A stretch of 64,000 bases of DNA from positions 5-64,004 of the forward strand of contig JAFRSV010000007.1 in the NCBI GenBank assembly GCA_017427405.1, in the 5' to 3' direction. The notes under the pieces are model-generated. The model did not search any database and was not told the origin of the DNA. It saw nothing but the letters and a program-made list of their open reading frames with translations. The position numbers and the translations under genes are program-made. Source of the DNA: Alphaproteobacteria bacterium (lineage in GTDB: Bacteria > Pseudomonadota > Alphaproteobacteria > Rs-D84). Below, piece by piece: positions 3,955 to 34,140 of the stretch (positions are counted from its first letter, which is position 1; every line of letters begins with the position of its first letter).

Positions 3955-3956
3955 TC

Positions 3957-13070: not shown

Positions 13071-13088
13071 TTTATTCAACTATTCGTG

Positions 13089-13188: not shown

Positions 13189-13219
13189 GAGGTTATAGGA
13201 ATGGAAGGAAAGGGATTGA

Positions 13220-16200
13220 ATGTCACGTTTTCTGCGGTTTTTTAGTGCTTTGGTCGTTGTGGTTGTGTGTGCGCTTTATGGGGCATCTCTTTATTCTGCC
13301 ACAAGTTCTGGATCAACGCCAAGTACTACGATTTATTTGGATGATGATGGGGCAAAATACCCAAGTGTGCCTTCGACGCTTAGCTATAATAGTTCAACAC
13401 ATCAGTTGTCGGGTTTACCGTTAACAAGTACACCATATAAACCTGGATATCTTTATGCGGGGCATACCACAGAACAAGATTGTCAGGGTAATTTAATAAT
13501 AGATCATACTGGAGCCAAGCACGTTTATAGAGATGTTACTGAGATCGATGCGAACACGTTATATGCTTGTTGGGTGCCGGCTATTTATCTAAATTATAAG
13601 CCGGCCATATCAGATGTGGTGTACAGGAAGGTCTTTGTGTTGAATGGTAATGGCAGTTATAATGCCGGTAGTTTTGTTAATTCTATACAGGCTTCAAATT
13701 ACCAAACCGCAACTTGGGGGGGCAATGGTCAGAATTTTCAGGTAAGATATGAAAATCGTGGTGATTGGGTTTTCTTGGGTTATTATAATGGGAATTATAA
13801 GTGGTTAGTGCCAAGTAGTAGCCCAAATTCTATGATAGGACCGTTACAGGAGATTACTGGTGCTATAATCTTGGGTGGATATGATTTTGGTGGGTATTAC
13901 GAAAATATGAGTTCTCCGTGGGGGGCGGAGATTGTTGATAGTTCAAAGCAGTTGATAGATGCGAATCTGTTACCGTGGGATGCAGGTGTTTTTACTGGTT
14001 GGTACAATGAAATATATGCCAAGTGGGATCCGGCGGTTTATACCGTGACATTGAGTGGACAAAACGTTTCACCGAGTACGGTGTATCTAAAGTATGGTGT
14101 GGGTTGGTATGACACATTGGCGCATGCTCAGGCTGGTGGAACTACGGGTCTTTTGTCTGGATTGACAACGCCGCCGTCTGGAACAAGTGGTCAAGTTTTT
14201 GGCGGATACTATGCTCATGATTTGGGGTCTTTTGGGTGGGTCAAAGTTATTGAAGATGACGGACAGTTCATTATGAGCCAGACGGCGTTAACATCGATAC
14301 AAATGAATGGAACTTTGACGCCAAGTTGGAATAATTCCACATGGGCGACGTTAACAATAAATGATATGGATGAACAGACCGCGACACAACCAAAACCGTT
14401 GTATTATTCGTTGTCTGGCTGTCCAAATAATTATTATCGTGCAAATCCATATTGTTCCGATCAACAGGTGACGCAGGTTAGTATACCGCAAAAAAGTGGT
14501 TGGGTATATTATGGGCATTACGATGGTATTGGTGGAGCCGGAAATCAATATATAAACAGTATCGGTGTAATTCAAAGAGTTGTGCATTCTGATGCAAACA
14601 TATATGCGAAATGGCTTTTTAATGTGTCGTATGCAGCGGGCGAAGGTGCCAGTGGTGATCAACCTGCGGATCCGTATGCTTGTATATATGGGGTGGCATG
14701 CAATGCGCCACAGAATACATATACGAATTCCAATACTGGTATGACTTTTGCCGGATGGGCCTGTACAATATATGGTGGACAACACAATGGGACTAGTTGT
14801 GGAACGTATTTGGCGGGTCAGGATTTGTCGGGGGCGACAAGCGGCAAACAGGGAGCGACCGGTATTATCCTGACCGCGACATGGGCATCGACGGGTAATT
14901 ATCATAAATTAAATTTAAAGCCGAATAATGGCGGCTCAAGCATAAGTGATCCATATATTTATCAACGTTATGGTGTTGGGTTCTTTAAGAACAATAATAC
15001 CACGTATCCGATAACAACATCTATATTTGCACCATTGGGTAGCGGTGGTGCCGGTATTTCGCAACCAACGAACGGAACAAAGGTTTTTGATGGGTATTGG
15101 ACGACAACGAATAATAGCGGAATAAAGGTAATTAAAGAAAATGGTATTATATCGGTTGGTGCGACACAATTTCCAAACACAACAGGTTCCACAAATTTGT
15201 ATGCGCATTGGTTAACACCGCAAGAAATTGCTTTAAAAGCGGGGCAAATGGGTGACAGCGCCAGTTGGGGAACTTGTGGTGTTAATAGTATTCTGGTGGT
15301 TCCGGGGCATCCCCCGTTGCAGGATTCGTTAAGTTGTGGCCCAACGTGGGCAGGACATACCTTCCTAGGATATTATGACGAGAATGGAACACAATATTAT
15401 GATGGTAATAGAAACGCCATGTATGATGAATGGCCGGCAGCAAATGCCCCAGAAATGCTCTTTGGACATTGGGCACCGAATACATATGCGGTAAATTATT
15501 CTTGTACCGAAGGTGGTTCTGTTGTGCATACGGATTATGTTGTCAATGGTGCAACATATACGGTATGGGACGGTTCGGATGTGTGTAATACCGCCGCTAC
15601 ATCATCAGCCCCCGGTTCCCCCGGTTCCCCCGGTTCCAAGTTGACCCGGTGGGAAACTGTTGTCAGTGGTGGTATCGGGACTTCGGCAATGTATAATCCC
15701 GGGCAAGAATATAATTCGTTTAGTATTATAGCGAACTTGAATTTAAAGGGTACTTATTCCAATATCTATGTTGTGAATTTGGATCATATGGGAAACACCC
15801 CAGATATGCCATTGACCAATGTTCCATCACCGGATACCGTGTATTATGCGCAAAGAAAGTGGTACAGCGATAACAGAGCAATTACTCAAATAAATCAGAT
15901 GAATTTGGCCCCGGAAAAGATAGGGTATGACTTTAACGGATATCGGACACAGAATGATGGTGGAACAAATGTTGGCGCGTTTAATAATAATCTTAACTCT
16001 GATGTAATAACCGTAAATAATTCCACAATATATGCATATTGGCGACCAACGGTGTATGCGATACGTTTGAATCCGGGTGCAGGCAATGGTGGCACCGAGG
16101 AATTATATTACCGAATCGACAAGGGATGGGATGATGAAAATGATTTTGTGTCACCTACGAACATAACGGCGATTACGCCACCGACCCCACCGACCGGCGA

Positions 16201-19200
16201 AAGGTTTGTCGGATATTATACCGCGGATGGAACATCAAGTGGTGAATGGGGAACCCAGGTGGTTGATGAGAACGGAACAATACAGGTTAATGGCATTGTT
16301 AATGTCGCGAATATGGTTGCGTCGCTTAGTAATTGGACACTTTATGCACAATATGGTGAGGCAATTACACCGCCGTCCAATTCGAATGATTATTTTGCGG
16401 TGACAACTACGGCTTTGGCCGCCGGGGACACGTTTAAGTTTGGAATGAGCGCCGCTGGGAGTTTCTATGTTGATTGGGGTGACGGAACGGTTGTACCTAT
16501 TGTGCGTGATAATACAAATCCAACGGTTTATTCGCATACATATTCTACGAGTGGTTCAAAGGTAATTAAAATTTGGGGTGGTGCAACAGGTTATCTTTAT
16601 AGTTATGGTACACCGTATCCTGTGATATGGTTTAGTGATGATGTGGGTGGTGGAAATCTTGCCACAACCCCAACATTGGTTTATGGAATATCTGGGTCGC
16701 TTGGGGCGATTTTCCCGACACTTGGTAATGGTGGAAGTGGAAATGTTCCCGGATTTCAGCATACGTTTAGTGGTTGTACAAATTTAACAGGTTCCATTCC
16801 GGAAAATTTGTTCGGTTATGTGTCAGATGGAAGTTATATTGGTGTTACTGGTTCTGTTACGCAAATGTTTTTTCAAACATTCGGAGGTACAGAATTGAAT
16901 GGCGCGATACCGGAAACTTTGTTTGGTCGCATGGTTAATGGAACTTATTATGGTGTGACGGGTGCCGCCTCGTTTATGTTTAGTGGTATTTTTGGTAATA
17001 CAAACATAACATCTATACCAGCTGGATTGTTTAGCGGTGTTTCTGGGGCGGCAGAAGGTATGTTTTATTCTACTTTTGCTAATACAAACATAACATCTAT
17101 ACCAGCTGGATTGTTTGGTGGTATATCCGGTGCGGCACCACTTATGTTTGGCTATACATTCGCAGGCAGCGGATTGGCAGGTGACAATGCGATACCAGCC
17201 ACGTTATTTAGTGGCGTGACGGGTGCCGCCGGGCACATGTTTGAGGCCACCTTTCAAGACTGTTCTGATTTGACATCCGTGCCGGGAACGTTGTTCAGCG
17301 GTGTTTCTGGGGCGGCAGAAGGTATGTTTACAAATACCTTCATTTTTACGGGTTTGACTTCGTTGCCAAGTGGATTGTTTAGTGGTGTAACAGGAACGGC
17401 GGATGGGTTGTTTGCCGCTACATTTGCGAACAGTACTGGTGGCCTTGCCGGTAAATATATACCAAAGGATTTATTCAACCTTAATCTTAATGGTTTAACG
17501 TATGATGCAAGCAATGGTATGATGGCCAATATATTCGCTGGTACGGGGCTTATCACGGATTGTGCCGATGTTAATTTGACGCATTATCCGACGGATTATG
17601 ATGATTCCTATTGGGAAGGGAAGAAGATTTGTGCGCCGGCGGTAACGTTTAGTTGCGAAAATCCAACACTGGGGGGTGATGGGACGCCAAGTCCGAATGA
17701 AATATGGGTAGATCAGATTACGGGTTCGACCACCCTGCCCGCTACAACCAATTGTGTAGCCCCGGCACATTATACTAGCACAAATTATTGGGTTTGTGAT
17801 GGAAATAGTAATTGTAGTGGGAATCCTGGGTATTGGGAAGGTGGAACAACAAGGCCGGATTGGTTGCGAAATCTAACGCAAAATGTCAATTTTTATGTGG
17901 TATATACGCCACAACAGTATACGATGACGTTATATCAAAATCATGATGCAAATGATAATGTTACCGTTGGGACAATTACGGAGACATATAATACCTCTTG
18001 GTCGCCAAGCACGGCGCCAGTGCCACAATGGACAGAGCATACATTTTCCGGTTATTATACCGCTCGTGAAGGCGGTGTTCAAATGACCGATGGAAATGGA
18101 AACTTTATGAACGATGCTGCGACATTTACGGTTGATTCGTCAATGCCTTGGTATGCGCATTGGGGGGTTGATAATGGGCCGTTTACGGTGACGTTTGGGT
18201 ACGGTGATAATGGAAGTTGGGCAAGCGGTGTTACGCCATCTTCATTTACACCACAGACTGTTTATTATCAAGATCCACAGCATCTGTTGACTGTTCCGGC
18301 GGGTAGTGTTTGCACCCATAATCCGCAAAGTACCAGTGCCGGTTACATAAATTCGGCTTGGAGTTGTCATTATGAACATGATCCTGTTCATGGTTTTGTG
18401 CTTGGTGGAATTAATAATCAATATACGGTTCAGTATAGTTCGCGCGATAGTGCAAACTGTGTCCCGCATTGGCAACCGGTGGAAACCACGATTACATTGG
18501 ACCCACAGTTGGGAAGTGCCGGGACGTATGATCCGTGGAATACTGGGGGTGGGACTGATACCATATATACCCGGTATGATGTTGGTGCTTTTCTTGATGC
18601 GGATCGGACGCAACAGATGGGTGCCAATCAAAATGGGCTGCCTAGCTTGCCGGGCAAGTCTGTGTTGATGATATTTGATTTGAATGCTGATGATGCCGTA
18701 CTTGCGGTTGGAACGTCGCAATACAAAAACCTTGGAACATATCCTTCGTTAACTGCGCTACAAAATGCGTATCCAACCGCACAAAGTGGTAACTATGCAT
18801 TTGTTGGGAATCAGTATTATATTTGGTCAGGTACCGGGACAAATCCTGGATGGTATCAGTTTGATTGGCCGGTGCCCCCGTTTTACAGTGTGGTGAATGT
18901 TCTACCGTTTAAAGGATATTATCCCACCGTTAGTGGCGGAAACCGATATATATCTCCTAGTGGTTTGCTTGAGACCGCTGGCAACAACGCGGCGACACAA
19001 AGTACGAGCAATTCAACGTGGCACGCCCAGTGGCAAGCGGTTAATCCCAAGAAAAGTAGTTTCGATTTGCAAAATTTAAGCGATGGTTTGAATTCTCTGG
19101 TGCCGACGCGTGCAGGCAAGGTTTTTGCCGGTTGGTGGACGGAGGCCAGTGGTGGACAACAGGTTACCCAAGCTGAAAATGGAAATTTAATTTTGGGTGG

Positions 19201-25200: not shown

Positions 25201-28200
25201 CCATTTGTGGTATGCCCAATGGACAAATGGGACTGTTGTGTTGCCTTGTGTATATCGACCGGGGTATAAGTTCTTGGGTTGGTTTACTGCCACCGGAACC
25301 ACACCTGTGGGACAATGTGGTGATACATATTCTGTATCCGCCAGTCCAACACTTTATGCACATTGGGAACTGTGCGCGGATGGCGAATATTGTCCGGGGG
25401 TTGAAACGGTGAATAATCAGACGGTTTATAACGCGGTTCATGATTGCCCGGAAAACTATCCAAATAGTGCCGCAGGCAGCACAATAATAAGTGATTGCTA
25501 TTTGGTATTAACGCCGGGTAAATGGGTTGAAACGGCCGGTGCGGGTATGGTTGATTGTACAGAAAATTATTATTGCGATGATAATACAACCAAGGTTTAT
25601 TATTCTGGGGATGGGCGCAGAACGACCGGTATTCGTAAGTCGTGTGCGGCGAATGCAGGCAGTTTTAGCATGTCAAGCGCGGCCTCAGACGAGATAGGCG
25701 ATTGTTATAAAAATGTCACATTAAATAAACGTGGCGGCAGCGGAACCCTGGGGGGCGCGTCCGGTACGGCTAACGGTTCGAAAGAGTGTTACTATGGACA
25801 AAATTGCACATTGCCGGATGCGACCGTGTTGCAATTGGTGGGGCATACGTTCCATGGTGGGTGGAGTCAGACCGACGAAGATTGCAATGGGACAACGCGC
25901 GTATTTGTTGTGCCGGATGATGTTGATACATACTATGCATGCCGGACGACGAATAGTTATACCGTGACATTAAAGGATGGTCAAAATACGGGCGTTACAT
26001 TTGCAACCGTGAATGTGAACTATGGTGACCCGATGCCAAATGTTGACAGTAATGGTAATTCTTTGGTCGTGCCAACACACACACCGATATCGCCGAATAC
26101 AACGCATGTGTTCCAGGGATATTTTAGCACCAGCGGACAATCAAGTGGTAGTGGAACGCTATATTATAATGCGAATTTAACAAGTGCACGTAATTGGACC
26201 ACAGAAAATGATGGAACATTATATGCAAAATGGTACATGAAGTGCGATCCGGGTTATTATTTGCCGGCCGGAAGTTATGCTTGTGCACTTTGTCCGGCGG
26301 GTCGGTATTGTGTTGGTGGATCGGCGTTTGCGTATAGTTCCTCAACGGACAAAGGATTAAGTGGATATATTGCGGCGGGGTATTACAGCACTGGTGGGGC
26401 ATCAACGTCAAAGCCATCTGGGCATGTGACCAGTGGCAGTGGATGCTATGGGCAGGTTAATGGTGCAGATACCGCGTGCGGTTTGGTTGCCGGTGGGTAT
26501 TACAGCACCGGTGGTGGAACAAGTGCGACACCGACAGCACCCGACAATGGGTGTTTGAGCGGAAGTGGCCGGAGTTGTGGTGTGTTGGGTGCAAATTATT
26601 ACAGCAATGGTGGTGGAACGAATAGCACAGGGGCGTGTGTAACCGGTCAAACATGTGGTGCGTGTCCGACCAACTATCGGTCCAATAGTGCCACGGGCAA
26701 GACGGCTATTACACAGTGTACGGCGGGATGTTCTGATGGACAATGGATTATGACGGCCGAGGATCCAACCGTGAATAATCCAAGCGCGGAGGGTTGTACC
26801 ACATCGGCCAGTAATTATATATGGAGTAAGGCGCATACGGTTGCATATGGCAGTGCATCGCCGAGTGTTTCCGATCCGAATGAGGGTGGACGGCATTCGT
26901 GCCAGACTCTGTACCGTACACCAACAACCTATAATGCGTCTGATCATGATGACCAATCGGATTGTACGCGAAGCGTGCCATTGTTCAAGAATGGTGGTGC
27001 CACCGTCGATGGTGCGGTATGGCCGGACAATGTGACCGATGATGGTGGCACGGATAATGCGTCCGCCACGTGCGCCGAAGGTGCAACGTGCAATTTTGGT
27101 AACCCGGCGGAATTGCTGGAACAGACCGGCTATACATTCCAGGCAAATTGGGGGACAAACGCTGGTTGTACTTCTACGGTTGGGACATCGGTTACAACGC
27201 CGACCAACCTAAGGTATTATGCATGCAAGACACAAAATAATTATACATTGACATATTCTTGTGGAACCGGGACAGGAACGGCGCCGGCTCAACAGACCAA
27301 CATACATTATGGTGATACGGTTTCGGTTTCGGGCGCGGGCGGTTGTGCCAAGACGGGACATACTTTTGCCGGTTGGGCGGTAAGTGACACATCGGACGTT
27401 ATAACCGCGACCACATGGCCACACGATATTACATGGAATTATGATGGCAGTAAGACCTTTACCGCACAATGGACGGCAAATACGTACAGTATATCTTATG
27501 TTGGAAACGGTGGAACGGTGGCATCGCTGTTGCCGGATGGGTATACCGAATTGGAATATATTCAATCTGATGGAAACCAATATATACGGACTAACTTTAT
27601 CCCAAGTTCTGATTTTAAACATACGATTGTATTTGAAGGGCTTTCGGGAAATTCAAGTACATATATTGCTGGGACAAATTCAGGGGCCGCGGGACGTGCA
27701 GGTAATGTCAGAATTGATGGTAATTATATTAATGCTGTTTATGGTAATAATGCTTCAGATGGTGCCGTGAATCTTGTTAGAAGTTCGGCGGTGGGTTCGG
27801 TGTCGATATTGAATAAAAAATCCGTTTTGGTTTTGGATTTGCATAATAATGCCACAAATTCTATGACATTAAATGGTGTTCAAATTGCAAACACATCTAC
27901 GGCAAGAATAACATCGACGTCGCCTATGAGTTTGTTTGCGTTGAATTCGAGTTATCGTAGCATAATCAGATTATATCGTGATACGATTGAACAAAACGGT
28001 GTATTGGTGCATAATTACGTTCCGGCACAACGTGACGAAGATAATGAAATTGGGCTGTATGATACGGTGACGGGTGAATTCTTTACAAATGCAGGTTTGG
28101 GTTCGTTTGTCGCCGGGGATCCAGTGACAGGTGCATATCCAAATCAATATACATATGGTGTTGGGGCAACGGTGACCGGTGGTGCCGCGCGCGCGAACAG

Positions 28201-31200
28201 TGTGTTCCAAGCATGGTGCCGGACCGCGTTACTTACAAACTGTGCGGCGCCACATGAAATTACCACAACCGATTTGGATGATATAACATTGTATGCAAAG
28301 TGGGGATGCGTGGCGGGTTATCATGATGTTGATAATCAATGTGTCGCAAATGAATTTACATTGGTTTACAACGCAAATGGGCATGGAACGGTGCCGAACA
28401 ATCAAACATGTACGTATGGCCAGCAGATTAATCTTGCGGATGATTTGTCAGAAACCGGATGGTGGTTTAATGGATGGACCATTGCGGGTGAAACCTATAT
28501 GGGTGGCGAAACGATTACGTGTAATGAAGAATACCTTGGGGTGACGGGCGGAACGGTCAATGTTAATGTTAATGTAACGGCGGATTGGAGTGCAAAATGT
28601 AACAAGATTACCTTGAATAAAAACAATTCCGCTGCATCAAATGGGACAATAACCGCCCTGTATGCCAAGACGCGTGAGAATGGTAGCACGGTTGACGGTA
28701 AATGGTACAAGAACTCTACGTGCACAACCGAGTATACGTCTGCGGATTATGCAAATGTTATACCGACGCGCAGTGACAGTTGGACGTTCCGTGGATTCTA
28801 TGCGAATCTGTCTGATGCGGCGGATATAAATGCGACGCAGACAAATGGTGCGAATCGGGTTATAACGCATACCGGTGAACCAACAAGTATAACAGGCCAG
28901 AACTTTATAAACGGTCTGAATGCGCCGGCGACATTGTATGCCGGTTGGGCCAAAGACTGTGCTGGTGTAAATGGTACGTGCGTACGGACATTGGGAACGA
29001 ATACCAGTTATACGACAAGTTGTGCCACCGGGTATCATTATGGGACGGCACCAAATGGTGTGACATATAACCCGGCAACAAATGGCAACACCAGTGAATC
29101 AACATACTATCCAAATTGTGTCCCGAACACCATTACGATTATCTTGGATAAAAACGGCGGAACCGGAACATGTGGTGGTCAAAGTGGAACGACGTCCGGG
29201 ACATTGACATGCGCCTATGACGACACGTGCAATACACCAACGTGGGTGAGTAGCCCATCGTGTAGACTTACCCAATCTGGCAAGATATTTGCGGGATGGA
29301 ATACGGCGGCGGATGGCACGGGAACACAATATGGAACTGCGACCGTGGCCGGTGATGTTCAAAATATAAATGATGGCACAACAACTACAACACTTTATGC
29401 GGTATGGCAAGATGCGGTATGCAATGTCACGGATGGAAGCGCGACCGTTGCGATTCGTGCTAATCAGGTGTATTGCAATGTCACATGCAATACCGGTTAT
29501 GAACAAAACGGGGTTGTTCGCGGGCAACAACACGAATGGATTGTTGATACCGGTCAATGCAACGCGTCAACATATGATATCGATTATGAATTGTATGGCG
29601 GCAGTCGTGTAGAACCAAACGATTATACGTTGTTGGAATATGTAACAGCGGATGGGAACCAGTATTTTGATACGGGAATCGCGATTAAAAAATCGTATGA
29701 AATAAGAAGCAAGTTTGAACCAAAAATATCGGCAAAATTTTTGTACGGTGTTCGTAATACCAATGATACGTCAAGTGTGACAATGTATATTAGTGATGGG
29801 GGGAACAGTCGTTGGGGCAATCAATCTTTAACGAAACCATTGTTCATAAATACAGAGTATACGACGGTACATAATGTAAGTGGTTTGACGGTTAATGGAA
29901 CGACAACGGCATATACGACACAAAGTGTGGATTTTACAACGACAAATACGTTGATACTTGGAACAGCCCGCGCCGCCAGTGGAACGCTTAGCTCAAATAA
30001 ATTTATTGGTAATGTATATGAATTCAGAATACTTGACGGAAATCGTAATGATTTGATGAACCTGGTGCCGGCGCGGCGCAATAATGATGATGCGGTTGGA
30101 TTCTATGATACGGTTAGTGGCGAATTCTTTACGAGTATTGGCAGTGAGGATTTTGCCCCTGGACCGGCGATTTCGGAAGAGTACACTTTGTTGGATTTCA
30201 TACAATCCAGTGGAACACAGTATATTAAAACAAACTTTATTCCGACCACTGACTTTAAGCATACCATTGTGTTCGAAGGACTTAATAGTAGCAGTACATC
30301 CACATATATTGCCGGGACAGCATACACAGATGGACGGGCGGGTAATGCCAGAATAACCAGTGGGAAAATTGATCGTGTGTTTGGTAATAATCCATCAAAT
30401 AGTAATTCGTCGAGTAATTACTTAAACCTTATCAATACCAATAATATATCGGTTGTAAATACAAAATCGATTTTGGTTATGGATTTGCATAATAATGCGG
30501 CAAATACGATAACATTAAATGGCACAGATATTACCAGTAGTAATACAGGAACAATAACATCTACATCGGCGTTGTCTTTGTTTGCGTATGGGGCTGGTAG
30601 TTCTAAGAGTACCATTAAGTTATATCGTTCCACCATTGAACAAGGTGGCGTGGTTGTGCATGACTATGTCCCGGCACGGCGAAACCGTGATGGTGAACTT
30701 GGGGTGTATGATATGATTACCGGGGAATTCCTTACTAATTCGGGAACGGAAACATTCGTTGCGTCGGATAAAGTTTTGGTTTCGGCACAGGCCACATATC
30801 CGGATGAATATATGTACGGCATTGGTGCAAATGTCTATGGTGTGCCGGTGCGTGCGAACAGTGTGTTCGAAGGTTGGTGCCGGAATGCAGAATTGACCGA
30901 TGGTTGCACTATGGTTCCGCACACAATAGGTGCAACCGAAACCGGTGATAAATTATTGCATGCAAAATGGTCTTGCGTGGATGGGTATCATTTGGGGGCA
31001 AATAATCAATGCGTTGGAAACACAATTACAATAAACTATCAAAATGGTGGACATGGTGGAAACCCGTGGAATCCGCAAACATGTACCTATGGTACACAGA
31101 CCAACTTGGGCGGGGCGATGTTCGATAGTGGATATGTGTTTAGTGGTTGGGAGTTAAACGATGAAGTTTATGACGCAGAAGAAAACATATCGTGCAATTA

Positions 31201-33769
31201 TGATACATTGGGTGTTTATAGTGGATCTGTGGCGGCGGTTGCGGTTTGGGATGCGCAGGCATTTACCGTGACGTATGATTGTAACACTTCGTGGACGCCA
31301 AATAATGCGCCTGCGTCACAGAATACACAAACAGATGCACAATTTACGGTGAAAAGTAATACATGTGTGAACCCGGGTTATCGATTCGTAAAGTGGGCGG
31401 TTAGCGGGACAAATCCACAGGAATATAAAAACGAAAATGACCAGTTTATATGGGGGTATACGGAAAACAAGACATTTAGTGCGGTATGGGAAATTGATGA
31501 CACGGACGCCTTTACTGTGACGGTTGATATGCCGGCAAATACAGAATTTAAATTCAATACGATTGCAACGGGGCAATTCTGGGTTAATTGGGATGATGGT
31601 TCGAATATTGAAGAATATGCGCCAACAACAATTACAACCAAGACATGGACGCATACATATACAACCGCGGGAACATATGATATAAAGATTGGCGGGCGCG
31701 CAACGGGGTATGCGGTTAGTGGTGATGGGACCCCAGAAAAGAAATCGGCAATAAGTTTCTTTAATGGAACGCTTAGCGATTCTACTAGTATTGATGCCAC
31801 GGTGACGGCAAGTGGAACCGAACAATATATTACTGCGGTTAGTGGTAAACTGGGGTTGATATTCCCAACGATTACTGCGGGCTCATGGGGTGGTCAGCCA
31901 CGATTCTATCGCACGTTTAAAAATACGACGGCCATGACAGTATCATTGCAATCAATTGCTGATTTATTTGATGGAATTAGTGGTGTGCCGGTTCACTATA
32001 TGTTTGCCGAAACATTTGATGGGTCGGCGGTGACGGGTGCGATACCGGCCGGGTTGTTCCCTGTATCGGGGGCGCCAAAGACGGCATTATTCCTTTCCTC
32101 GTTCCGTAATTGTACCGGGTTAACCGGGACAATACCGGCGAATTTGTTTGTGAATATAAGTGGTGTGCCGGCGGTAAGTATGTTCAGTCGGACATTCCGT
32201 GGTTGTACGGGGCTTACAGGAATACCGGCGGGTTTGTTTAGAAATATAAGTGGTGCACCGGCAGAAGCCATGTTTTATGCCACATTTTTGGGTTGTACAA
32301 ATATAACCGGAACATTATCCAGTAATCTGTTTGGAAGTTTGAATGGCCCGATTGCAAAGGATATGTTCCGTAGCACATTCTATAATTGTACCAGTTTGGT
32401 TGGCAATACATCTGATGCGACAGTCGCAATTCCAAATGGAATGTTCGGAACGTTGACGGCATCCACAACGGCGGCAACACGTGCATTTTCCGCAACATTT
32501 TATGGGTGTGCCGCATTGCGGGGCAAGATTGGGGGGGCGCTGTTTGGGGGGCTGACCGGAAATCCGGCGGAATATATGTTTAGCAATACATTTAATACTT
32601 GTGGAGATCGTGATATAACCACAAATTGTTCAAACCTTAATGGGGCGATTCCGTCGAATCTGTTTGGTAATATGACCGGTGCACCAAAACAGCATATGTT
32701 TAATGCAACGTTCAAGGGGGCGTCCGGCCTTACAGGTTCGATACCGAGCAGATTGTTTGGCGGTATTACTGGTGCACCGGCAACAAGTATGTTCAAAGAA
32801 ACATTCAAAGGATGTTCAGGATTGACAGGAATTATACCGGCGAATTTGTTTGAAAACATTTCGGGACTGCCGGCGGGAAGTATGTTTTATTCAACATTTT
32901 ACGATTGCAGTCACCTTAGCGGTATAGGTGGGGCACTCTTTAGTGGAATATCTGGGCGTGCGGTTTCAAGTATGTTCTTTACAACGTTTTATAATTGTTC
33001 CGGCCTTACTGGGTCAATACCGGCGGGATTATTCGGAACACCAACCACACCGGCAAATTGGATGTTTGGCAGTACATTTTATGGATGTAGTGGACTTACC
33101 GGTGAAATTCCGAGCGGTTTGTTTGGCAGTGTAAATGGTGCTGCAAAGGAAGCGATGTTCTATCGGACATTCTATAACTGCAGCGGTTTAACCGGCACAA
33201 TACCAAGTGATTTGTTTGGAACATTGTCTGGTGATGGTGTGAAAAATATGTTCAATTACACGTTCTATAATTGTAGTCATCTGACGGGGTATGTGCCAGA
33301 GGGGTTGTTTGGGACGATGACAGTGCCGTCAACCGTGCCAGACGGGATGATGTCGTATGTGTTTGTTAATTCGGGATTGGATACGGTTTGTCCGTGTGGT
33401 ACGACCGAGGTTGACAGTGACTTTAAGCCGTATTGGCGTTCAACATCTGCGAATGCAAACCCGAAGAAAGTTTCTTGTCGGGTCGGGTTAAAACCGGGCG
33501 AACATTGGTATAATGGTAACTGCACAACCGAATGTTCGGATACGGCGATTGATGAATTGCATATTGGTAATTTGGATCCTTATATCGTTTTGGCTGATCC
33601 TGTGTCGACGGTAAAGAATTTGGCGGTAAAACATAATGATACGATATGTTATGTTCCGGTTGCGTCTGGGAATGGTGGTGCAAGCAGTTTGAATATGAAA
33701 TACAGAAATACCGTGTATCATGCTGACCGACCGAACGATACGCCGCCCGCTGGATTTGGGCAAAGGTAA
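13220..33769 (+). CDS. Giant secreted repeat protein (6849 aa): Listeria-Bacteroides-type repeats, PKD-like + ~26-residue LRR blocks, Cys-rich repeats
   Basis: Uninterrupted 20,550-nt ORF. RBS GGAAGGAAAGGGA. Signal peptide MSRFLRFFSALVVVVVCALYGASLYSA. Dozens of units with signature G(Y/H)TF.G(Y/W)...GG....(L/W)YA.W. Has its own terminator at 33797-33820. All antisense ORFs are short. Confidence 0.9.
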   Translation: MSRFLRFFSALVVVVVCALYGASLYSATSSGSTPSTTIYLDDDGAKYPSVPSTLSYNSSTHQLSGLPLTSTPYKPGYLYAGHTTEQDCQGNLIIDHTGAKHVYRDVTEIDANTLYACWVPAIYLNYKPAISDVVYRKVFVLNGNGSYNAGSFVNSIQASNYQTATWGGNGQNFQVRYENRGDWVFLGYYNGNYKWLVPSSSPNSMIGPLQEITGAIILGGYDFGGYYENMSSPWGAEIVDSSKQLIDANLLPWDAGVFTGWYNEIYAKWDPAVYTVTLSGQNVSPSTVYLKYGVGWYDTLAHAQAGGTTGLLSGLTTPPSGTSGQVFGGYYAHDLGSFGWVKVIEDDGQFIMSQTALTSIQMNGTLTPSWNNSTWATLTINDMDEQTATQPKPLYYSLSGCPNNYYRANPYCSDQQVTQVSIPQKSGWVYYGHYDGIGGAGNQYINSIGVIQRVVHSDANIYAKWLFNVSYAAGEGASGDQPADPYACIYGVACNAPQNTYTNSNTGMTFAGWACTIYGGQHNGTSCGTYLAGQDLSGATSGKQGATGIILTATWASTGNYHKLNLKPNNGGSSISDPYIYQRYGVGFFKNNNTTYPITTSIFAPLGSGGAGISQPTNGTKVFDGYWTTTNNSGIKVIKENGIISVGATQFPNTTGSTNLYAHWLTPQEIALKAGQMGDSASWGTCGVNSILVVPGHPPLQDSLSCGPTWAGHTFLGYYDENGTQYYDGNRNAMYDEWPAANAPEMLFGHWAPNTYAVNYSCTEGGSVVHTDYVVNGATYTVWDGSDVCNTAATSSAPGSPGSPGSKLTRWETVVSGGIGTSAMYNPGQEYNSFSIIANLNLKGTYSNIYVVNLDHMGNTPDMPLTNVPSPDTVYYAQRKWYSDNRAITQINQMNLAPEKIGYDFNGYRTQNDGGTNVGAFNNNLNSDVITVNNSTIYAYWRPTVYAIRLNPGAGNGGTEELYYRIDKGWDDENDFVSPTNITAITPPTPPTGERFVGYYTADGTSSGEWGTQVVDENGTIQVNGIVNVANMVASLSNWTLYAQYGEAITPPSNSNDYFAVTTTALAAGDTFKFGMSAAGSFYVDWGDGTVVPIVRDNTNPTVYSHTYSTSGSKVIKIWGGATGYLYSYGTPYPVIWFSDDVGGGNLATTPTLVYGISGSLGAIFPTLGNGGSGNVPGFQHTFSGCTNLTGSIPENLFGYVSDGSYIGVTGSVTQMFFQTFGGTELNGAIPETLFGRMVNGTYYGVTGAASFMFSGIFGNTNITSIPAGLFSGVSGAAEGMFYSTFANTNITSIPAGLFGGISGAAPLMFGYTFAGSGLAGDNAIPATLFSGVTGAAGHMFEATFQDCSDLTSVPGTLFSGVSGAAEGMFTNTFIFTGLTSLPSGLFSGVTGTADGLFAATFANSTGGLAGKYIPKDLFNLNLNGLTYDASNGMMANIFAGTGLITDCADVNLTHYPTDYDDSYWEGKKICAPAVTFSCENPTLGGDGTPSPNEIWVDQITGSTTLPATTNCVAPAHYTSTNYWVCDGNSNCSGNPGYWEGGTTRPDWLRNLTQNVNFYVVYTPQQYTMTLYQNHDANDNVTVGTITETYNTSWSPSTAPVPQWTEHTFSGYYTAREGGVQMTDGNGNFMNDAATFTVDSSMPWYAHWGVDNGPFTVTFGYGDNGSWASGVTPSSFTPQTVYYQDPQHLLTVPAGSVCTHNPQSTSAGYINSAWSCHYEHDPVHGFVLGGINNQYTVQYSSRDSANCVPHWQPVETTITLDPQLGSAGTYDPWNTGGGTDTIYTRYDVGAFLDADRTQQMGANQNGLPSLPGKSVLMIFDLNADDAVLAVGTSQYKNLGTYPSLTALQNAYPTAQSGNYAFVGNQYYIWSGTGTNPGWYQFDWPVPPFYSVVNVLPFKGYYPTVSGGNRYISPSGLLETAGNNAATQSTSNSTWHAQWQAVNPKKSSFDLQNLSDGLNSLVPTRAGKVFAGWWTEASGGQQVTQAENGNLILGGDENLSLTQNITLYAHWTECEHTLPAGSHSSMQGISSQQPGYCSYHITCDAAGYGYSQHGGNDTTGEFNVSVSGTTGTLEGGNCYPRVYSIDYGNLANHNATMPENAPEQYTYGAETEINANNATPTSPTDVFESWCWDAAGTDHCNTTQTISNTAYGNKVYYAKWSDACQPGYTRYNYETLSHLMFDDDGGYTWNTADNVQAVAGANTCVPIRYHVNCDKNCDGDTCAACLEDFYMSCRPDAGSGAGAAGLGGNWHFGGGYNVLDFGTVPPATGHWRLFDGGFGPVIANSSNTWTDLTGSGWDNVSRLGRVEYGYNVCIQSEGGLQRIFHRMYPVYSGGTPRITTGNYNYFMESLSGDAHNTSTVFGRDHYTFDGLWTAADGGIQYIDGNGNLPGYDYLPWSNAFMIEGFNDSTSIRSAARQFQNFFFDNQIQPSSTSPYTFDVYAHWIPDVYSVQLMKNDGTNTQVGNIYEEYGNGWAINESGPFDPDLQLSGGNLPSRSGYTFAGYYTQAEGGDLVGSFSNGVWTLPTNTKYLTQDGGKWYAHWTPEEHEVTLDRNLGNATGTNGSTKVYTKYATGVYKNSNRTQKMTSNPNGTNPITLPTRKYVITYNPNYTGGSTWTSDVSSTFNGYYSSTTGGTPYIDNTGYITPTGDSTAQGYTNDDQIWHAQWTNGWHDLLLAHRNGYFMDGWYDAAENGNKVGEYMGTITPTSNMTLYAHWTACGWTAGDHSTAQYVNPVETDGNVCKYHITCESGYTHNGDSQFDEIKSSASGTLPGCSANEYTITYYDNPAYGTTDPLNTQGYTYNSSGTVTLWTPGADILAAHHASSVTWCTNLNDDTTCVNAGGAISANSGNMILYAKWTCATGYTTYGYFTQAIQYDDGHHDFSPGMCAPIRYRVICNRNCPATDQNCTACLEDFNMPDNQGSGYSWGNSYNSVSIFYTEFNIGLLPIPVKLVSYTPVWPSNFTQNPDYETIGIGPTWPDSLIDDVNGPNSLWEAWREDKNYKTFMEELASKSYNSNINFGAVHYDFDGLWTAANGGEQYIRADGLSPTGGGAFDTQEMSTFFTSDTNVYAHWTPKKYEVVLDKNASDAVAGNVVKLWEKWNDGWALTQDGTYNSAQTLSGNQLPTRTGYTFAGYFDTNAETGGNAMGSVSNGVWTTPSATATDVNPTRWYARWTPNQYTVTYDCGIGSGNGSTDNTPRYGQPYTPKTYVAAVCERPSNGYYFNGWNVTPGHSNSDIKNAGEAFNWDYTENQTFTARWVAKEYHITFNKNGGSDGTDEVWERYDSFWHDAGQNHIITITLPNWSGHTFAGYAFNGNTVISETTLPEPTFGFGDTSNNSTVDITLVAQWDTNTYNVRYNLGGGTTTLPVGYVPVEYITFEYITFTGTQVIDTGLKIKKGYEIQTKFYPTDTGKYVYGALSSDNSKTVSGYVSTAGGDWRWGNKAISKTMSLNSAYTIVQNASALTVNGVPVAYGTQDNFETGVTLSIGKAHSASGGTNYDTSGFKGRMYWFTIRDDNGNVVYHGVPVKNTANNQYGLCNIIDGTCLTASGINGATATLPATYNYGTATTVSGAAARANSVFNSWCSSPSSNCNSAQTIPATATGNKTFYAKWTCDAGYSYSSGGACVANNITLDWNENGGIGLTNGSCTYNGDLTLGVAPTYADHVFNGWKLANNTYGGASTTVNGGCVQTYTGVTSGTSTAITAQWCNACNPTNATCELNATAQLGTCTYTTSCNTGYHLSPDSQLNVYNTVCIPYTITYQSDGHGDGATDDVLYNSTFTTNDAKNSSQFNWDNHIVTAWTTVSGGSFPDVGGSYTYNVQSDTVLKANWGECHCTLGDYVTNCVTTSLNNACEVSEVECETGHSGGTGSCEGLECTSTCGESYTHMIRLRPSPATDGTRVLYAIDTNGGTDAGVYLDAAHQQRMTENDNHITLPTPVTRTVTYDKNANDAVLVGNTTAQTSATFNGYYNSTSGTEQYIAATGYITSEGITEGTEAANHLWYAQWTNGTVVLPCVYRPGYKFLGWFTATGTTPVGQCGDTYSVSASPTLYAHWELCADGEYCPGVETVNNQTVYNAVHDCPENYPNSAAGSTIISDCYLVLTPGKWVETAGAGMVDCTENYYCDDNTTKVYYSGDGRRTTGIRKSCAANAGSFSMSSAASDEIGDCYKNVTLNKRGGSGTLGGASGTANGSKECYYGQNCTLPDATVLQLVGHTFHGGWSQTDEDCNGTTRVFVVPDDVDTYYACRTTNSYTVTLKDGQNTGVTFATVNVNYGDPMPNVDSNGNSLVVPTHTPISPNTTHVFQGYFSTSGQSSGSGTLYYNANLTSARNWTTENDGTLYAKWYMKCDPGYYLPAGSYACALCPAGRYCVGGSAFAYSSSTDKGLSGYIAAGYYSTGGASTSKPSGHVTSGSGCYGQVNGADTACGLVAGGYYSTGGGTSATPTAPDNGCLSGSGRSCGVLGANYYSNGGGTNSTGACVTGQTCGACPTNYRSNSATGKTAITQCTAGCSDGQWIMTAEDPTVNNPSAEGCTTSASNYIWSKAHTVAYGSASPSVSDPNEGGRHSCQTLYRTPTTYNASDHDDQSDCTRSVPLFKNGGATVDGAVWPDNVTDDGGTDNASATCAEGATCNFGNPAELLEQTGYTFQANWGTNAGCTSTVGTSVTTPTNLRYYACKTQNNYTLTYSCGTGTGTAPAQQTNIHYGDTVSVSGAGGCAKTGHTFAGWAVSDTSDVITATTWPHDITWNYDGSKTFTAQWTANTYSISYVGNGGTVASLLPDGYTELEYIQSDGNQYIRTNFIPSSDFKHTIVFEGLSGNSSTYIAGTNSGAAGRAGNVRIDGNYINAVYGNNASDGAVNLVRSSAVGSVSILNKKSVLVLDLHNNATNSMTLNGVQIANTSTARITSTSPMSLFALNSSYRSIIRLYRDTIEQNGVLVHNYVPAQRDEDNEIGLYDTVTGEFFTNAGLGSFVAGDPVTGAYPNQYTYGVGATVTGGAARANSVFQAWCRTALLTNCAAPHEITTTDLDDITLYAKWGCVAGYHDVDNQCVANEFTLVYNANGHGTVPNNQTCTYGQQINLADDLSETGWWFNGWTIAGETYMGGETITCNEEYLGVTGGTVNVNVNVTADWSAKCNKITLNKNNSAASNGTITALYAKTRENGSTVDGKWYKNSTCTTEYTSADYANVIPTRSDSWTFRGFYANLSDAADINATQTNGANRVITHTGEPTSITGQNFINGLNAPATLYAGWAKDCAGVNGTCVRTLGTNTSYTTSCATGYHYGTAPNGVTYNPATNGNTSESTYYPNCVPNTITIILDKNGGTGTCGGQSGTTSGTLTCAYDDTCNTPTWVSSPSCRLTQSGKIFAGWNTAADGTGTQYGTATVAGDVQNINDGTTTTTLYAVWQDAVCNVTDGSATVAIRANQVYCNVTCNTGYEQNGVVRGQQHEWIVDTGQCNASTYDIDYELYGGSRVEPNDYTLLEYVTADGNQYFDTGIAIKKSYEIRSKFEPKISAKFLYGVRNTNDTSSVTMYISDGGNSRWGNQSLTKPLFINTEYTTVHNVSGLTVNGTTTAYTTQSVDFTTTNTLILGTARAASGTLSSNKFIGNVYEFRILDGNRNDLMNLVPARRNNDDAVGFYDTVSGEFFTSIGSEDFAPGPAISEEYTLLDFIQSSGTQYIKTNFIPTTDFKHTIVFEGLNSSSTSTYIAGTAYTDGRAGNARITSGKIDRVFGNNPSNSNSSSNYLNLINTNNISVVNTKSILVMDLHNNAANTITLNGTDITSSNTGTITSTSALSLFAYGAGSSKSTIKLYRSTIEQGGVVVHDYVPARRNRDGELGVYDMITGEFLTNSGTETFVASDKVLVSAQATYPDEYMYGIGANVYGVPVRANSVFEGWCRNAELTDGCTMVPHTIGATETGDKLLHAKWSCVDGYHLGANNQCVGNTITINYQNGGHGGNPWNPQTCTYGTQTNLGGAMFDSGYVFSGWELNDEVYDAEENISCNYDTLGVYSGSVAAVAVWDAQAFTVTYDCNTSWTPNNAPASQNTQTDAQFTVKSNTCVNPGYRFVKWAVSGTNPQEYKNENDQFIWGYTENKTFSAVWEIDDTDAFTVTVDMPANTEFKFNTIATGQFWVNWDDGSNIEEYAPTTITTKTWTHTYTTAGTYDIKIGGRATGYAVSGDGTPEKKSAISFFNGTLSDSTSIDATVTASGTEQYITAVSGKLGLIFPTITAGSWGGQPRFYRTFKNTTAMTVSLQSIADLFDGISGVPVHYMFAETFDGSAVTGAIPAGLFPVSGAPKTALFLSSFRNCTGLTGTIPANLFVNISGVPAVSMFSRTFRGCTGLTGIPAGLFRNISGAPAEAMFYATFLGCTNITGTLSSNLFGSLNGPIAKDMFRSTFYNCTSLVGNTSDATVAIPNGMFGTLTASTTAATRAFSATFYGCAALRGKIGGALFGGLTGNPAEYMFSNTFNTCGDRDITTNCSNLNGAIPSNLFGNMTGAPKQHMFNATFKGASGLTGSIPSRLFGGITGAPATSMFKETFKGCSGLTGIIPANLFENISGLPAGSMFYSTFYDCSHLSGIGGALFSGISGRAVSSMFFTTFYNCSGLTGSIPAGLFGTPTTPANWMFGSTFYGCSGLTGEIPSGLFGSVNGAAKEAMFYRTFYNCSGLTGTIPSDLFGTLSGDGVKNMFNYTFYNCSHLTGYVPEGLFGTMTVPSTVPDGMMSYVFVNSGLDTVCPCGTTEVDSDFKPYWRSTSANANPKKVSCRVGLKPGEHWYNGNCTTECSDTAIDELHIGNLDPYIVLADPVSTVKNLAVKHNDTICYVPVASGNGGASSLNMKYRNTVYHADRPNDTPPAGFGQR

Positions 33770-33796: not shown

Positions 33797-33820
33797 AACC
33801 GGGCAAATGCCCGGTTTTTT
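33797..33820 (+). terminator. Rho-independent terminator of the giant ORF
   Basis: AACCGGGC-AAAT-GCCCGGTT followed by TTTTTT, 28 nt after the stop codon. Confidence 0.85.
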
Positions 33821-33863
33821 AGTGGTTTCTGAAATCAATCCACTTACACTGTCCACTAACACT
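33819..33863. repeat. Short member of the GTNAGT repeat family
   Basis: TTAGTGG (33819-33825) faces CCACTTACACTGTCCACTAACACT (33840-33863). The stop codon (TAG, 33856-33858 on the minus strand) of the 71-aa ORF lies inside the GTGTTAGTG motif. Confidence 0.7.
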
Positions 33864-34071
33864 TGGTTCCCATCGTGCGGGCGGATTTAAGTGCCGCGTG
33901 CAACGATTCACGCGCAATTTCATTTATGCGGCCCGAAAATGTGCGCATATTCATGGAATCGGCAAAGTTTTTTGTAAAAATCCCAGCAATATATTCAATT
34001 TGCGCCGGCGAAATCAGGAAAATATCACTGGTTATATCCCGGGAATCCAACTGTTTTATTGAATTTTTCAT
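33856..34071 (-). CDS. Small hypothetical protein (71 aa)
   Basis: ATG 34071 preceded by AGGGGAAAG. No signal peptide or recognisable motif. Divergent from secA. Confidence 0.45.
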   Translation of the reverse strand: MKNSIKQLDSRDITSDIFLISPAQIEYIAGIFTKNFADSMNMRTFSGRINEIARESLHAALKSARTMGTKC

Positions 34072-34140
34072 CTTTCCCCTACTCTTTTTTTGCTTTTTGT
34101 TCTTGTTTATTGCTTTTGTTGCATTATATCATAAAGTATC

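What the first reader, a model, noticed from the sequence alone, without database searches (positions are those of the whole stretch)
13220..33769. Uninterrupted 20.5-kb ORF encoding a 6849-aa secreted mosaic protein
A single ORF fills one third of the window and has its own promoter-like element, RBS, Sec signal peptide and strong terminator. It is built from dozens of ~70-90-aa units carrying the Listeria-Bacteroides repeat signature (GYTF.GYY....GG.....WYAHW). These are interspersed with two PKD-like plus LRR blocks, Cys-rich eukaryote-like repeats and four copies of an unassigned ~185-aa module. I see no C-terminal beta-barrel-like tail, LPXTG motif, tandem GGxGxD array or other recognisable outer-membrane export or anchoring signal. 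How a protein of roughly 0.7 MDa (estimated from length) leaves the periplasm of a Gram-negative cell is therefore unexplained. secA lies about 430 nt downstream.
Basis: partly seen in the sequence, partly recalled or inferred. Interest (0 to 1): 0.8.

Follow-up and report, generated by a model that had tools for sequence, protein, structure and literature searches.

The report
Giant adhesin with unannotated C-terminal domain
A small-genome gut alphaproteobacterium spends about 2% of its DNA on one real 6849-residue secreted adhesin-like protein. It ends in a conserved, so far unannotated 95-residue domain that may be how such proteins are sorted to or held on the cell surface.

Summary
The 20,550-nt ORF (13220..33769, +) is real. 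It has no internal stop. Independent assemblies give 6849 and 6848 aa. Its internal DNA repeats are at most 82% identical. A collinear orthologue has dN/dS 0.28.

The organism is an uncultured gut alphaproteobacterium related to Rs-D84/Ca. Enterousia, whose genomes are under 1 Mb.

The protein consists of:
- a Sec-type signal peptide;
- about 36 Flg_new repeats;
- two PKD-like plus 28-31-aa solenoid-repeat blocks, which do not match LRR_5 and are nearest to PARCEL/TIGR02167, just below its cut-off;
- Cys-rich spacers;
- four copies of a module that I now assign to the LamG/ConA-like lectin fold.

It missed the last ~95 aa, which form a conserved domain. That domain matches 83 protein clusters (64-7432 aa) and lies at the extreme C-terminus in 80 of them. 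Named members are all Alphaproteobacteria MAGs. It has no Pfam or NCBIfam model and no PDB fold match. Among 120 solenoid paralogues it never occurs together with an N-terminal domain that 86 of them carry.

Best reading: a giant surface adhesin whose C-terminal domain is a lineage-specific sorting or anchoring module. How it crosses the outer membrane remains unresolved.

The parts
13203..13215 (+). Shine-Dalgarno-like purine run GGAAGGAAAGGGA, 4 nt before the ATG
   Evidence: read from the sequence
13220..33769 (+). giant ORF, 6849 aa plus stop
   Evidence: independent assemblies; collinear orthologue and dN/dS 0.28
13220..13300 (+). Sec-type signal peptide, aa 1-27. The MSRFLRFF n-region is conserved in the giant orthologues. 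The lipobox is not canonical (VVVC).
   Evidence: only hydrophobic segment in the protein; orthologue N-termini
13349..16357 (+). N-terminal run of about 9 Flg_new-like (Listeria-Bacteroides) repeats, aa 44-1046
   Evidence: self-built HMM
16382..16594 (+). PKD-like beta-sandwich 1 (F.F..SAAG.FYVDWGDG), aa 1055-1125
   Evidence: self-similarity to block 2; homologues carry PF00801/PF18911 on record; this copy is below the Pfam cut-off
16595..17629 (+). solenoid (LRR/PARCEL-like) block 1, about 7-9 units of 28-31 aa, with a Cys-containing cap, aa 1126-1470
17951..23257 (+). central region of Flg_new-like repeats interspersed with small Cys-containing modules, aa 1578-3346
23273..23854 (+). LamG/ConA-like lectin module 1, aa 3352-3545
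23861..26236 (+). Flg_new-like pairs (aa 3548-3704, 3930-4050, 4178-4339) alternating with Cys-rich spacers
26237..26719 (+). Cys-rich C.PG.Y...C..CP.G.YC repeats (GCC2_GCC3-like by eye, no Pfam hit), aa 4340-4500
   Evidence: sequence; negative Pfam scan; relatives carry PF07699 on record
27515..28114 (+). LamG/ConA-like lectin module 2, aa 4766-4965 (the copy that was modelled)
   Evidence: AF2 pLDDT 88.7; Foldseek hits to neurexin LNS, laminin G, pentraxin and CBM66
28115..29410 (+). Flg_new-like repeats and Cys-containing spacers, aa 4966-5397
29573..30739 (+). LamG/ConA-like lectin modules 3 and 4 in tandem, aa 5452-5840
30782..31492 (+). last 3-4 Flg_new-like repeats, aa 5855-6091
31505..31714 (+). 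PKD-like beta-sandwich 2, aa 6096-6165
   Evidence: Pfam PKD E 0.066, below cut-off; homologues pass
31715..33454 (+). solenoid (LRR/PARCEL-like) block 2, about 15 units of ~30 aa (MF..TF.GCSGLTG.IP..LF..ISG.PA), aa 6166-6745
   Evidence: TIGR02167 27.8 bits against a cut-off of 30; more than 770 homologues
33467..33766 (+). conserved C-terminal domain (Cys-hairpin, LH.G, CYVP., YHA, GFGQR), aa 6750-6849; candidate sorting or anchoring module
   Evidence: 83 clusters match, 80 of them at the extreme C-terminus; alignment; AF2 pLDDT 89.1; no PDB fold match; no Pfam or NCBIfam hit
33797..33822 (+). intrinsic-terminator-like hairpin AACCGGGCAAATGCCCGGTT plus T-run

Best explanation
The ORF encodes a giant modular surface adhesin of an uncultured gut alphaproteobacterium with a reduced genome (related to Rs-D84/Ca. 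Enterousia), which is probably dependent on a partner or host.

Shown:
- It is one intact, selected gene with a Sec-type signal peptide.
- The protein is built like beads on a string, from about 36 Flg_new repeats and Cys-rich spacers.
- It carries likely ligand-binding units: two PKD-like plus solenoid-repeat blocks and four LamG/ConA-like lectin modules.
- It evolves about ten times faster (by dN/dS) than its housekeeping neighbours, and its length varies from 2640 to 7432 aa among orthologues.
- Its last ~95 aa are a conserved, unannotated domain found at the very C-terminus of many otherwise different secreted proteins of related Alphaproteobacteria.

Inferred:
- SecA/SecYEG exports it, and its 157 cysteines form disulfides in the periplasm.
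- The C-terminal domain is the module that targets it to, or holds it on, the cell envelope. It would be analogous in position and size to a T9SS C-terminal domain or a non-covalent wall-binding module.
- The stalk then displays the lectin and solenoid modules to bind a host, protist or bacterial partner.

The machinery that takes it across the outer membrane was not identified.
For: Gene integrity:
-.
- A collinear orthologue in L005 is 68.6% identical over 3854 aa.
- dN/dS is 0.28, against 0.03 for secA and 0.05 for dnaE, at similar dS.

Taxon and lifestyle:
- Relatives are Alphaproteobacteria / Ca. Enterousia MAGs.
- GcrA and ruvB-ybgC-tolQRA synteny are present.
- Rs-D84 genomes are under 1 Mb, lack amino-acid, nucleotide and lipid biosynthesis, and are proposed to depend on a partner (PMC12306168).

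Domains:
- Flg_new.
- LamG-like fold, pLDDT 88.7, Foldseek probability 1.0, TM about 0.5-0.6.
- The PKD-like plus solenoid family has more than 770 homologues, many with PKD Pfam hits on record.

C-terminal domain:
- The profile search finds 83 clusters, and 80 matches end within 16 aa of the C-terminus, in proteins of 64-7432 aa.
- Three near-invariant Cys and the CY.P and YHA motifs are conserved.
- It occurs with LRR, Cys-rich-only, LamG or Flg_new N-terminal parts. 43 of the 63 proteins examined have a hydrophobic N-terminus.
- Among 120 solenoid paralogues, 86 have an N-terminal domain directly after the signal peptide, 17 have the tail, and none has both.
- A positional orthologue of only 1254 aa at the same tolA-secA site also ends in the tail.

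Diderm markers.
Against: - There is no experimental or proteomic evidence of localisation.
- No partner translocon was found. Tail-bearing genes sit at four or more unrelated loci with no conserved neighbour.
- The tail could equally be a distal binding tip.
- Its model has no structural relative, so function cannot be read from the fold.
- The mutual-exclusion statistic is not corrected for shared ancestry.
- BamA, LptD and Lpx genes were not seen in the 590 kb of lineage DNA I could scan, so even the envelope type rests on indirect markers.
- The signal peptide was judged by eye and by hydropathy, not by a dedicated predictor.
Confidence: 0.6

Rival explanations
1. The protein is a surface or released adhesin, but the conserved C-terminal domain is the distal ligand-binding tip or an oligomerisation knob, not a sorting or anchoring signal. 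Attachment to the cell, if any, is through the N-terminus or through another protein.
For: - The tail is a compact, Cys-stabilised beta domain, like many binding tips.
- No partner gene was found.
- The weak best BFVD matches are uncharacterised gut-phage proteins (E 0.2-0.6, TM 0.45), which could be receptor-binding proteins.
Against: - 80 of 83 matches are strictly C-terminal, whatever the architecture or length. Binding domains usually also occur internally or in tandem.
- The tail is mutually exclusive with an N-terminal domain placed directly after the signal peptide. That fits two alternative attachment ends better than two alternative ligands.
- tblastn of the tail against 50,697 phage genomes finds nothing.
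Confidence: 0.22
2. It is a type 1 secretion (LapA/SiiE-like) giant adhesin. The conserved C-terminus is a non-RTX T1SS signal used with a TolC-like channel, and the N-terminal hydrophobic segment is a retention element rather than a Sec signal.
For: - Giant size, acidic pI of 4.7 and repetitive stalk.
- A conserved domain at the extreme C-terminus.
- A TolC-family OEP exists in a related genome, E 1e-40.
Against: - The N-terminus is a classical n-h-c signal peptide, conserved across the family.
- There are 157 cysteines (2.3%). From my own knowledge, T1SS substrates are typically Cys-poor.
- There are no GGxGxD nonapeptides and no T1SS or RTX model hits.
- No ABC/MFP genes lie next to any of the five loci inspected.
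Confidence: 0.08
3. The lineage has lost a conventional outer membrane, or has a very leaky one. Sec export alone would then put the protein on the cell surface and there is no periplasm-exit problem.
For: - Rs-D84 genomes lack lipid biosynthesis (PMC12306168).
- No BamA, LptD, LpxA/B/D, TolB, Pal or secretin homologue was found in 590 kb of window plus related loci.
Against: - That sample is only a fraction of about 25 genomes.
- TolQ-TolR-TolA-like genes, an OmpA-like lipoprotein, a TolC-like OEP, a SurA-like chaperone and MlaE are present. All make sense only with an outer membrane.
Confidence: 0.07
4. The ORF is an assembly chimera or a decaying pseudogene that merely stays open.
For: It is a metagenomic short-read assembly of a repetitive gene.
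Against: - Two independent sample assemblies give 6849 and 6848 aa.
- Internal DNA repeats are at most 82% identical and under 100 nt.
- Orthologues of 2640-7432 aa share the same N- and C-termini.
- dN/dS is 0.18-0.36 in every 300-codon window.
Confidence: 0.02

Closest known systems
Giant fibrillar adhesins of Gram-negative bacteria secreted by T1SS (LapA, SiiE, MpIBP)
   Same: Size of 0.3-1.5 MDa, acidic, with a long stalk of small beta-rich repeats that carries ligand-binding modules near one end. The functionally important element is at the extreme C-terminus.
   Different: This protein has a Sec signal peptide, many cysteines, no RTX repeats, no adjacent ABC/MFP genes, and Flg_new rather than BIg stalk units.
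T9SS cargo with a C-terminal domain (Por_Secre_tail, TIGR04183) in Bacteroidota
   Same: Sec signal peptide at the N-terminus. A 70-100-aa beta-rich domain sits at the extreme C-terminus of many unrelated secreted proteins in one lineage, and the genes are scattered without a partner nearby.
   Different: Different phylum. There is no sequence hit to the CTD models and no PDB fold match to any CTD structure. The tail here carries conserved cysteines.
BspA-like / PARCEL (DUF285, TIGR02167) repeat surface proteins of Mollicutes, Treponema, Listeria and Trichomonas (PMC2996958)
   Same: Amphipathic repeats of 26-30 residues with F..C..L and IP..F-type motifs, in surface proteins of host-associated microbes with small genomes. 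They are often combined with Flg_new.
   Different: The units here are 28-31 aa. They score 27.8 bits, just under the TIGR02167 cut-off of 30, and do not hit Pfam LRR_5 or DUF285. The hosts are diderm Alphaproteobacteria.
Listeria internalin B (LRR, B-repeat/Flg_new, C-terminal GW modules)
   Same: It combines a solenoid binding domain and Flg_new-type repeats with a C-terminal non-covalent surface-attachment module. This comparison rests on my own knowledge.
   Different: InlB is monoderm, 630 aa, and uses GW/SH3-like anchors. Here the protein is about 11 times longer, the host is diderm, and the C-terminal domain is unrelated.
LamG/LNS/pentraxin/CBM66 concanavalin-like lectin domains
   Same: The four ~190-aa modules adopt this jelly-roll fold (Foldseek probability 1.0, TM 0.5-0.63).
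   Different: There is no sequence-level match to any Pfam, NCBIfam or PDB entry. Homologues are mostly stand-alone 190-335-aa proteins of uncultured Alphaproteobacteria.

Membership tests
Flg_new / Listeria-Bacteroides repeat (PF09479, TIGR02543) | profile match above the curated cut-off | tested here: met
   PF09479 scores 38.3 and 91.4 bits against a cut-off of 27. TIGR02543 scores 32.1 and 26.5 against 20.95. About 36 units were found with a self-built HMM.
PKD domain (PF00801 / PF18911) | profile match above the gathering score | tested here: inconclusive
   This protein reaches only E 0.066, 13.7 bits against 23.5. Many homologues of the same block have PF00801/PF18911 on record.
BspA-type LRR (LRR_5, PF13306) | profile match | tested here: not met
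   No hit at E<=1 on either solenoid block. Only 1 of the 120 listed homologues has PF13306 on record.
PARCEL / 26-residue surface repeat (TIGR02167; DUF285) | profile match above cut-off; about 26-aa amphipathic repeat | tested here: inconclusive
   TIGR02167 scores E 1.5e-6 and 27.8 bits against a cut-off of 30. The units are 28-31 aa. There is no Pfam DUF285 hit.
GCC2_GCC3 (PF07699) Cys-rich repeat | profile match | tested here: not met
   No hit at E<=1 on aa 4150-4700. The motif C.PG.Y..C..CP.G.YC is visible by eye, and three relatives have PF07699 on record.
Concanavalin A-like lectin / LamG superfamily | jelly-roll fold | tested here: met
   AF2 pLDDT 88.7. Foldseek PDB hits to neurexin LNS, laminin G, pentraxins and CBM66, with probability 1.0 and TM 0.5-0.63. 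The match is at fold level only.
Type 5 secretion (autotransporter, two-partner, trimeric) | C-terminal beta-barrel or YadA anchor, or N-terminal TPS domain | tested here: not met
   There are no Pfam or NCBIfam hits at either end. Only ~100 aa follow the last solenoid unit. The predicted strands are 4-9 residues long. No barrel-like PDB match was found.
Type 1 secretion RTX adhesin | GGxGxD repeats | tested here: not met
   No GGxGxD motif is present.
Type 1 secretion RTX adhesin | no Sec signal peptide | tested here: not met
   A hydrophobic n-h-c N-terminus is present and conserved across the family.
Type 1 secretion RTX adhesin | adjacent ABC/MFP genes | tested here: not met
   The neighbours are the tolQRA genes, rnpB and secA.
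Sortase (LPXTG), exosortase (PEP-CTERM), rhombosortase (GlyGly-CTERM) | C-terminal motif followed by a TM helix and a basic tail | tested here: not met
   No LPXTG motif. No hydrophobic window lies outside aa 1-30 (maximum Kyte-Doolittle score 1.27).
T9SS C-terminal domain (TIGR04183 / Por_Secre_tail) | profile or fold match; Bacteroidota host | tested here: not met
   No NCBIfam or Pfam hit on the last 150 aa at E<=1. No PDB fold match. The host is an alphaproteobacterium.
Bacterial lipoprotein | lipobox [LVI][ASTVI][GAS]C | tested here: not met
   The only Cys in the signal peptide lies in VVVC, with V at position -1. Orthologues have varied residues at that position.
Proposed new family: Alphaproteobacteria C-terminal 'CYVP...YHA' domain | about 95-aa domain at the extreme C-terminus of signal-peptide proteins | tested here: met
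   Window aa 6750-6849 seeded the profile, which recovered 83 clusters, 80 of them C-terminal. Conserved columns are C19, C23, C61, Y62, G68, Y84 and H85.

The most novel reading that the evidence does not exclude
The ~95-aa C-terminal domain, and perhaps the mutually exclusive N-terminal 'VNVxYIH' domain of the paralogues, marks cargo of a so far undescribed sorting or anchoring route. This route would move Sec-exported proteins of up to ~0.8 MDa to the surface of reduced-genome diderm gut Alphaproteobacteria. It would be functionally analogous to T9SS C-terminal domains or sortase signals but unrelated to them in sequence and fold.
Probability: 0.3. Interest if true: 0.8.

Novelty: new variant of a known kind. 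Interest (0 to 1): 0.6.

Why it matters
Rs-D84/Enterousia bacteria are widespread in animal and human guts. They have genomes under 1 Mb and are thought to live off a partner, yet nothing is known about how they attach. This gene takes roughly 2-2.7% of such a genome, evolves fast and varies three-fold in length between species. It is therefore the obvious candidate for the attachment organelle.

The conserved C-terminal domain gives a concrete, searchable handle on the lineage's surface proteome: at least 83 protein clusters carry it. It also turns 'how does a 0.7-MDa protein leave the periplasm' into a testable question. One can ask which envelope gene co-varies with the domain, and whether the domain is cleaved or retained.

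Tried and rejected
Searches that found nothing:
- PDB sequence searches with the LamG module, solenoid block 2 and the Cys-rich region gave nothing useful.
- The word-seeded search with the tail found only 3 near-orthologues. The exhaustive profile search was needed to see the family.
- I looked for a phage link for the tail and the LamG module. The best BFVD fold hits are not significant (E 0.2), and tblastn against INPHARED phages found no match. The idea was dropped.
- A paper search for the sample identifiers found nothing.

Tests with partial or negative results:
- E. coli BamA, LptD, LpxA/B/D, TolB, Pal, GspD and related proteins were searched against 590 kb of lineage DNA. Only ybgC, tolQ, tolR, a prepilin peptidase, a GspE-like ATPase and a TolC-like protein matched. 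The absence of the others is inconclusive.
- I searched for a conserved partner gene beside tail-bearing genes and found none at five loci.
- The assembly-artefact and pseudogene readings were rejected.

Mistakes:
- Two look-ups were wasted on wrong minus-strand coordinates.
Full report
**Observation**

The window holds one ORF from 13220 to 33769 on the + strand. It has an ATG start, 6849 codons and no internal stop. The calculated mass is 732 kDa and the pI is 4.7. The protein is rich in T, G, S and N and has 157 Cys.

A purine-rich SD-like run (13203-13215) precedes the ATG. A hairpin with a T-run follows the stop codon at 33797-33822. The consensus scan finds no sigma-70-like site on the + strand upstream. 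The - strand site at 13120-13092 fits the RNase P RNA gene that Rfam places at 12738-13083. secA starts 428 nt downstream.

The gene is not an assembly artefact.
- Two sample assemblies call it as 6849 and 6848 aa.
- The longest internal DNA repeats are under 100 nt and at most 82% identical.
- Protein-level repeats are 25-55% identical.

**Organism**

DNA encoding relatives of the last 349 aa is found only in uncultured gut Alphaproteobacteria, many of them labelled Candidatus Enterousia. The flanks show ruvB-ybgC-tolQ-tolR-tolA-like synteny and, just outside the window, GcrA. Both are typical of Alphaproteobacteria.

Rs-D84/Enterousia genomes are below 1 Mb, lack amino-acid, nucleotide and lipid biosynthesis, and are proposed to depend on a partner (PMC12306168). 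On such a genome this gene takes about 2-2.7% of the DNA.

Several markers point to an outer membrane.
- The Tol genes are present in the window.
- A 1027-aa lipoprotein in the window has an OmpA-like C-terminus (E 7e-5, below the Pfam cut-off).
- Related loci carry a TolC-family OEP (E 1e-40), SurA-like proteins and MlaE.

BamA, LptD and Lpx homologues were not seen in the 590 kb I could scan. That proves nothing either way.

**Anatomy**

- *Signal peptide.* Only aa 1-30 are hydrophobic. The N-terminus is a normal n-h-c signal peptide without a canonical lipobox.
- *Flg_new repeats.* Pfam and NCBIfam recognise only Flg_new/List_Bact_rpt. An HMM built from the protein itself finds about 36 such units.
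- *Solenoid blocks.* Two blocks (aa ~1055-1470 and ~6096-6745) each consist of a PKD-like sandwich followed by 28-31-aa solenoid repeats. They do not match LRR_5. The closest model is the PARCEL 26-residue repeat TIGR02167, at 27.8 bits against a cut-off of 30 (PMC2996958). This block has more than 770 homologues, all unnamed or 'hypothetical protein [Alphaproteobacteria bacterium]', and many have PKD hits on record.
- *The ~190-aa module.* It occurs four times. With 31 homologues it folds confidently (pLDDT 88.7) into a LamG/ConA-like jelly roll. Foldseek matches neurexin LNS, laminin G, pentraxin and CBM66 with TM 0.5-0.63. It is therefore a lectin-type binding module.
- *Cys-rich stretches.* They look like GCC2_GCC3 repeats but do not hit that model.

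**The C-terminus**

No LPXTG, GGxGxD, C-terminal TM helix, barrel or known C-terminal domain is present.

The last ~95 aa are nevertheless conserved. A word-seeded search found only three near-orthologues. An exhaustive profile search of 1.84 billion representatives found 83 clusters, 24 of them at E<=1e-10. In 80 of the 83 the match ends within 16 residues of the C-terminus, in proteins of 64 to 7432 aa.

The alignment shows a Cys hairpin (WYNG.C...C), L[KH][TV].G, TTP..N, CY[VI]P and YHA, often followed by P.GF[GT]Q. Named members are all Alphaproteobacteria MAGs.

The N-terminal parts of these proteins differ. They include the giant orthologues, short PKD-like plus solenoid proteins, Cys-rich-only proteins, a LamG protein and Flg_new proteins. 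43 of the 63 examined have a hydrophobic N-terminus, and most of the rest are fragments.

The domain folds confidently (pLDDT 89.1, all-beta). It has no PDB relative (best E 0.56) and no significant BFVD relative.

Among 120 solenoid paralogues, 86 carry an N-terminal 'VNVxYIH' domain directly after the signal peptide, 17 carry the tail, and none carries both (Fisher p 1e-11, not corrected for relatedness). Two alternative terminal modules on the same kind of secreted protein are most simply read as two alternative ways of attaching it.

**Evolution and synteny**

In L005, a sister species, the order giant-orf71-secA-dnaE-rsmH is kept. SecA is 97% identical and DnaE 95%, but the giant protein only 69-72%. 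dN/dS is 0.28, against 0.03-0.05 for the neighbours at similar dS, and 0.18-0.36 in every 300-codon window. The gene is therefore constrained but evolves fast, as surface proteins do.

Orthologues with the same MSRFLRFF signal peptide and the same tail range from 2640 to 7432 aa, with 7-35 Flg_new units and 2-5 LamG modules. In another MAG the same tolA-secA site holds a 1688-aa gene and a 1254-aa tail-bearing gene. Other tail-bearing genes lie at three further locus types without a shared neighbour.

**Interpretation**

The evidence supports a giant, Sec-exported, disulfide-rich fibrillar adhesin that displays lectin and solenoid modules.

It is sharpened in another: the protein ends in a lineage-specific domain with the distribution of a sorting or anchoring signal. 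I rate that reading above the rivals, which are a binding tip, a T1SS signal, the absence of an outer membrane, and an artefact. It remains an inference.

The finding is a new variant of a known kind (giant bacterial adhesins). There is a fair chance that the C-terminal domain marks something more novel.

Noticed in passing
window 12738-13083 (-): A bacterial class A RNase P RNA gene (182.8 bits) lies between the tolA-like gene and the giant ORF. The only promoter-like match in the intergenic region (13120-13092, - strand) fits this gene rather than the giant ORF.
   Followed up: partly
window 12381-12430, 3815-3835, 3938-3952, 33841-33862, 61060-61074, 63341-63368: Arrays of GTGTAA/GTGTTA hexamers lie just past the stop codons of several unrelated genes, in the orientation of the gene they follow (at 3815-3835 no preceding gene was identified). 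Each unit carries a TAA. This looks like a genome-wide post-gene repeat of unknown role.
   Followed up: partly
window 12596-12704: A perfect 45-nt tandem repeat (2.4 copies) containing the palindrome CTTCACACAGTGAAG lies between the tolA-like gene and rnpB.
   Followed up: no
window 42424-59007 (+): Five consecutive large ORFs (762, 1989, 1414, 575 and 752 aa) have signal-peptide-like N-termini and no Pfam hit. The 1414- and 575-aa products share their own C-terminal motif, LQPCQGGIxxTxxGxDxxGGNKYxMTCTE. The 762-aa product has relatives in other Enterousia loci (L011, L012, L014).
   Followed up: partly
loci L009-L025 and P0039-P0158 (paralogues of the solenoid block): Most short PKD-like plus solenoid paralogues (86 of 120) carry an unannotated ~80-aa N-terminal domain (VNVxYIH...ANMKYLL..VD.AN) directly after the signal peptide. 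They end in a conserved cap, ...GPSARINGQYLYEIWPD...GLSDY..IP..WK.
   Followed up: partly
window 33899-34114 (-): A 71-aa ORF with no family hit sits between the giant gene and secA. It is conserved at the same position in L005 (78% identical) and in L042.
   Followed up: no
N-termini of P0088, P0159, P0161-P0164, P0166, P0170, P0181, P0183, P0228 and the 1688-aa gene of L042: Large (over 1.1 kaa) secreted proteins of the lineage share a conserved signal-peptide n-region, MS[RGS]F[LI]R[FK]. The short tail-bearing proteins start with MKR/MKK-type signal peptides instead. This may be common descent or a specialised signal-peptide class.
   Followed up: partly
L033 17517-21476 (about 3.8-7.7 kb left of the window start): A prepilin peptidase (Peptidase_A24, 159 aa) is followed by 513-aa and 647-aa ORFs with no family hit. 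This may be a remnant or a divergent form of a type IV filament or Tad-like system.
   Followed up: partly
window 662-3745 (-): A 1027-aa protein has a lipobox-like signal peptide (SFGAC) and a sub-threshold OmpA-family C-terminus (E 7e-5, 23.5 bits against 27.2). It may be a giant Pal/OmpA-like envelope tether. TolB and Pal are missing from their usual place after tolA.
   Followed up: partly
L007 (OZ246409.1): This 716-kb 'chromosome' is labelled uncultured Muribaculaceae but carries a close relative of the alphaproteobacterial solenoid protein (59% identity). The public record is probably mislabelled.
   Followed up: no
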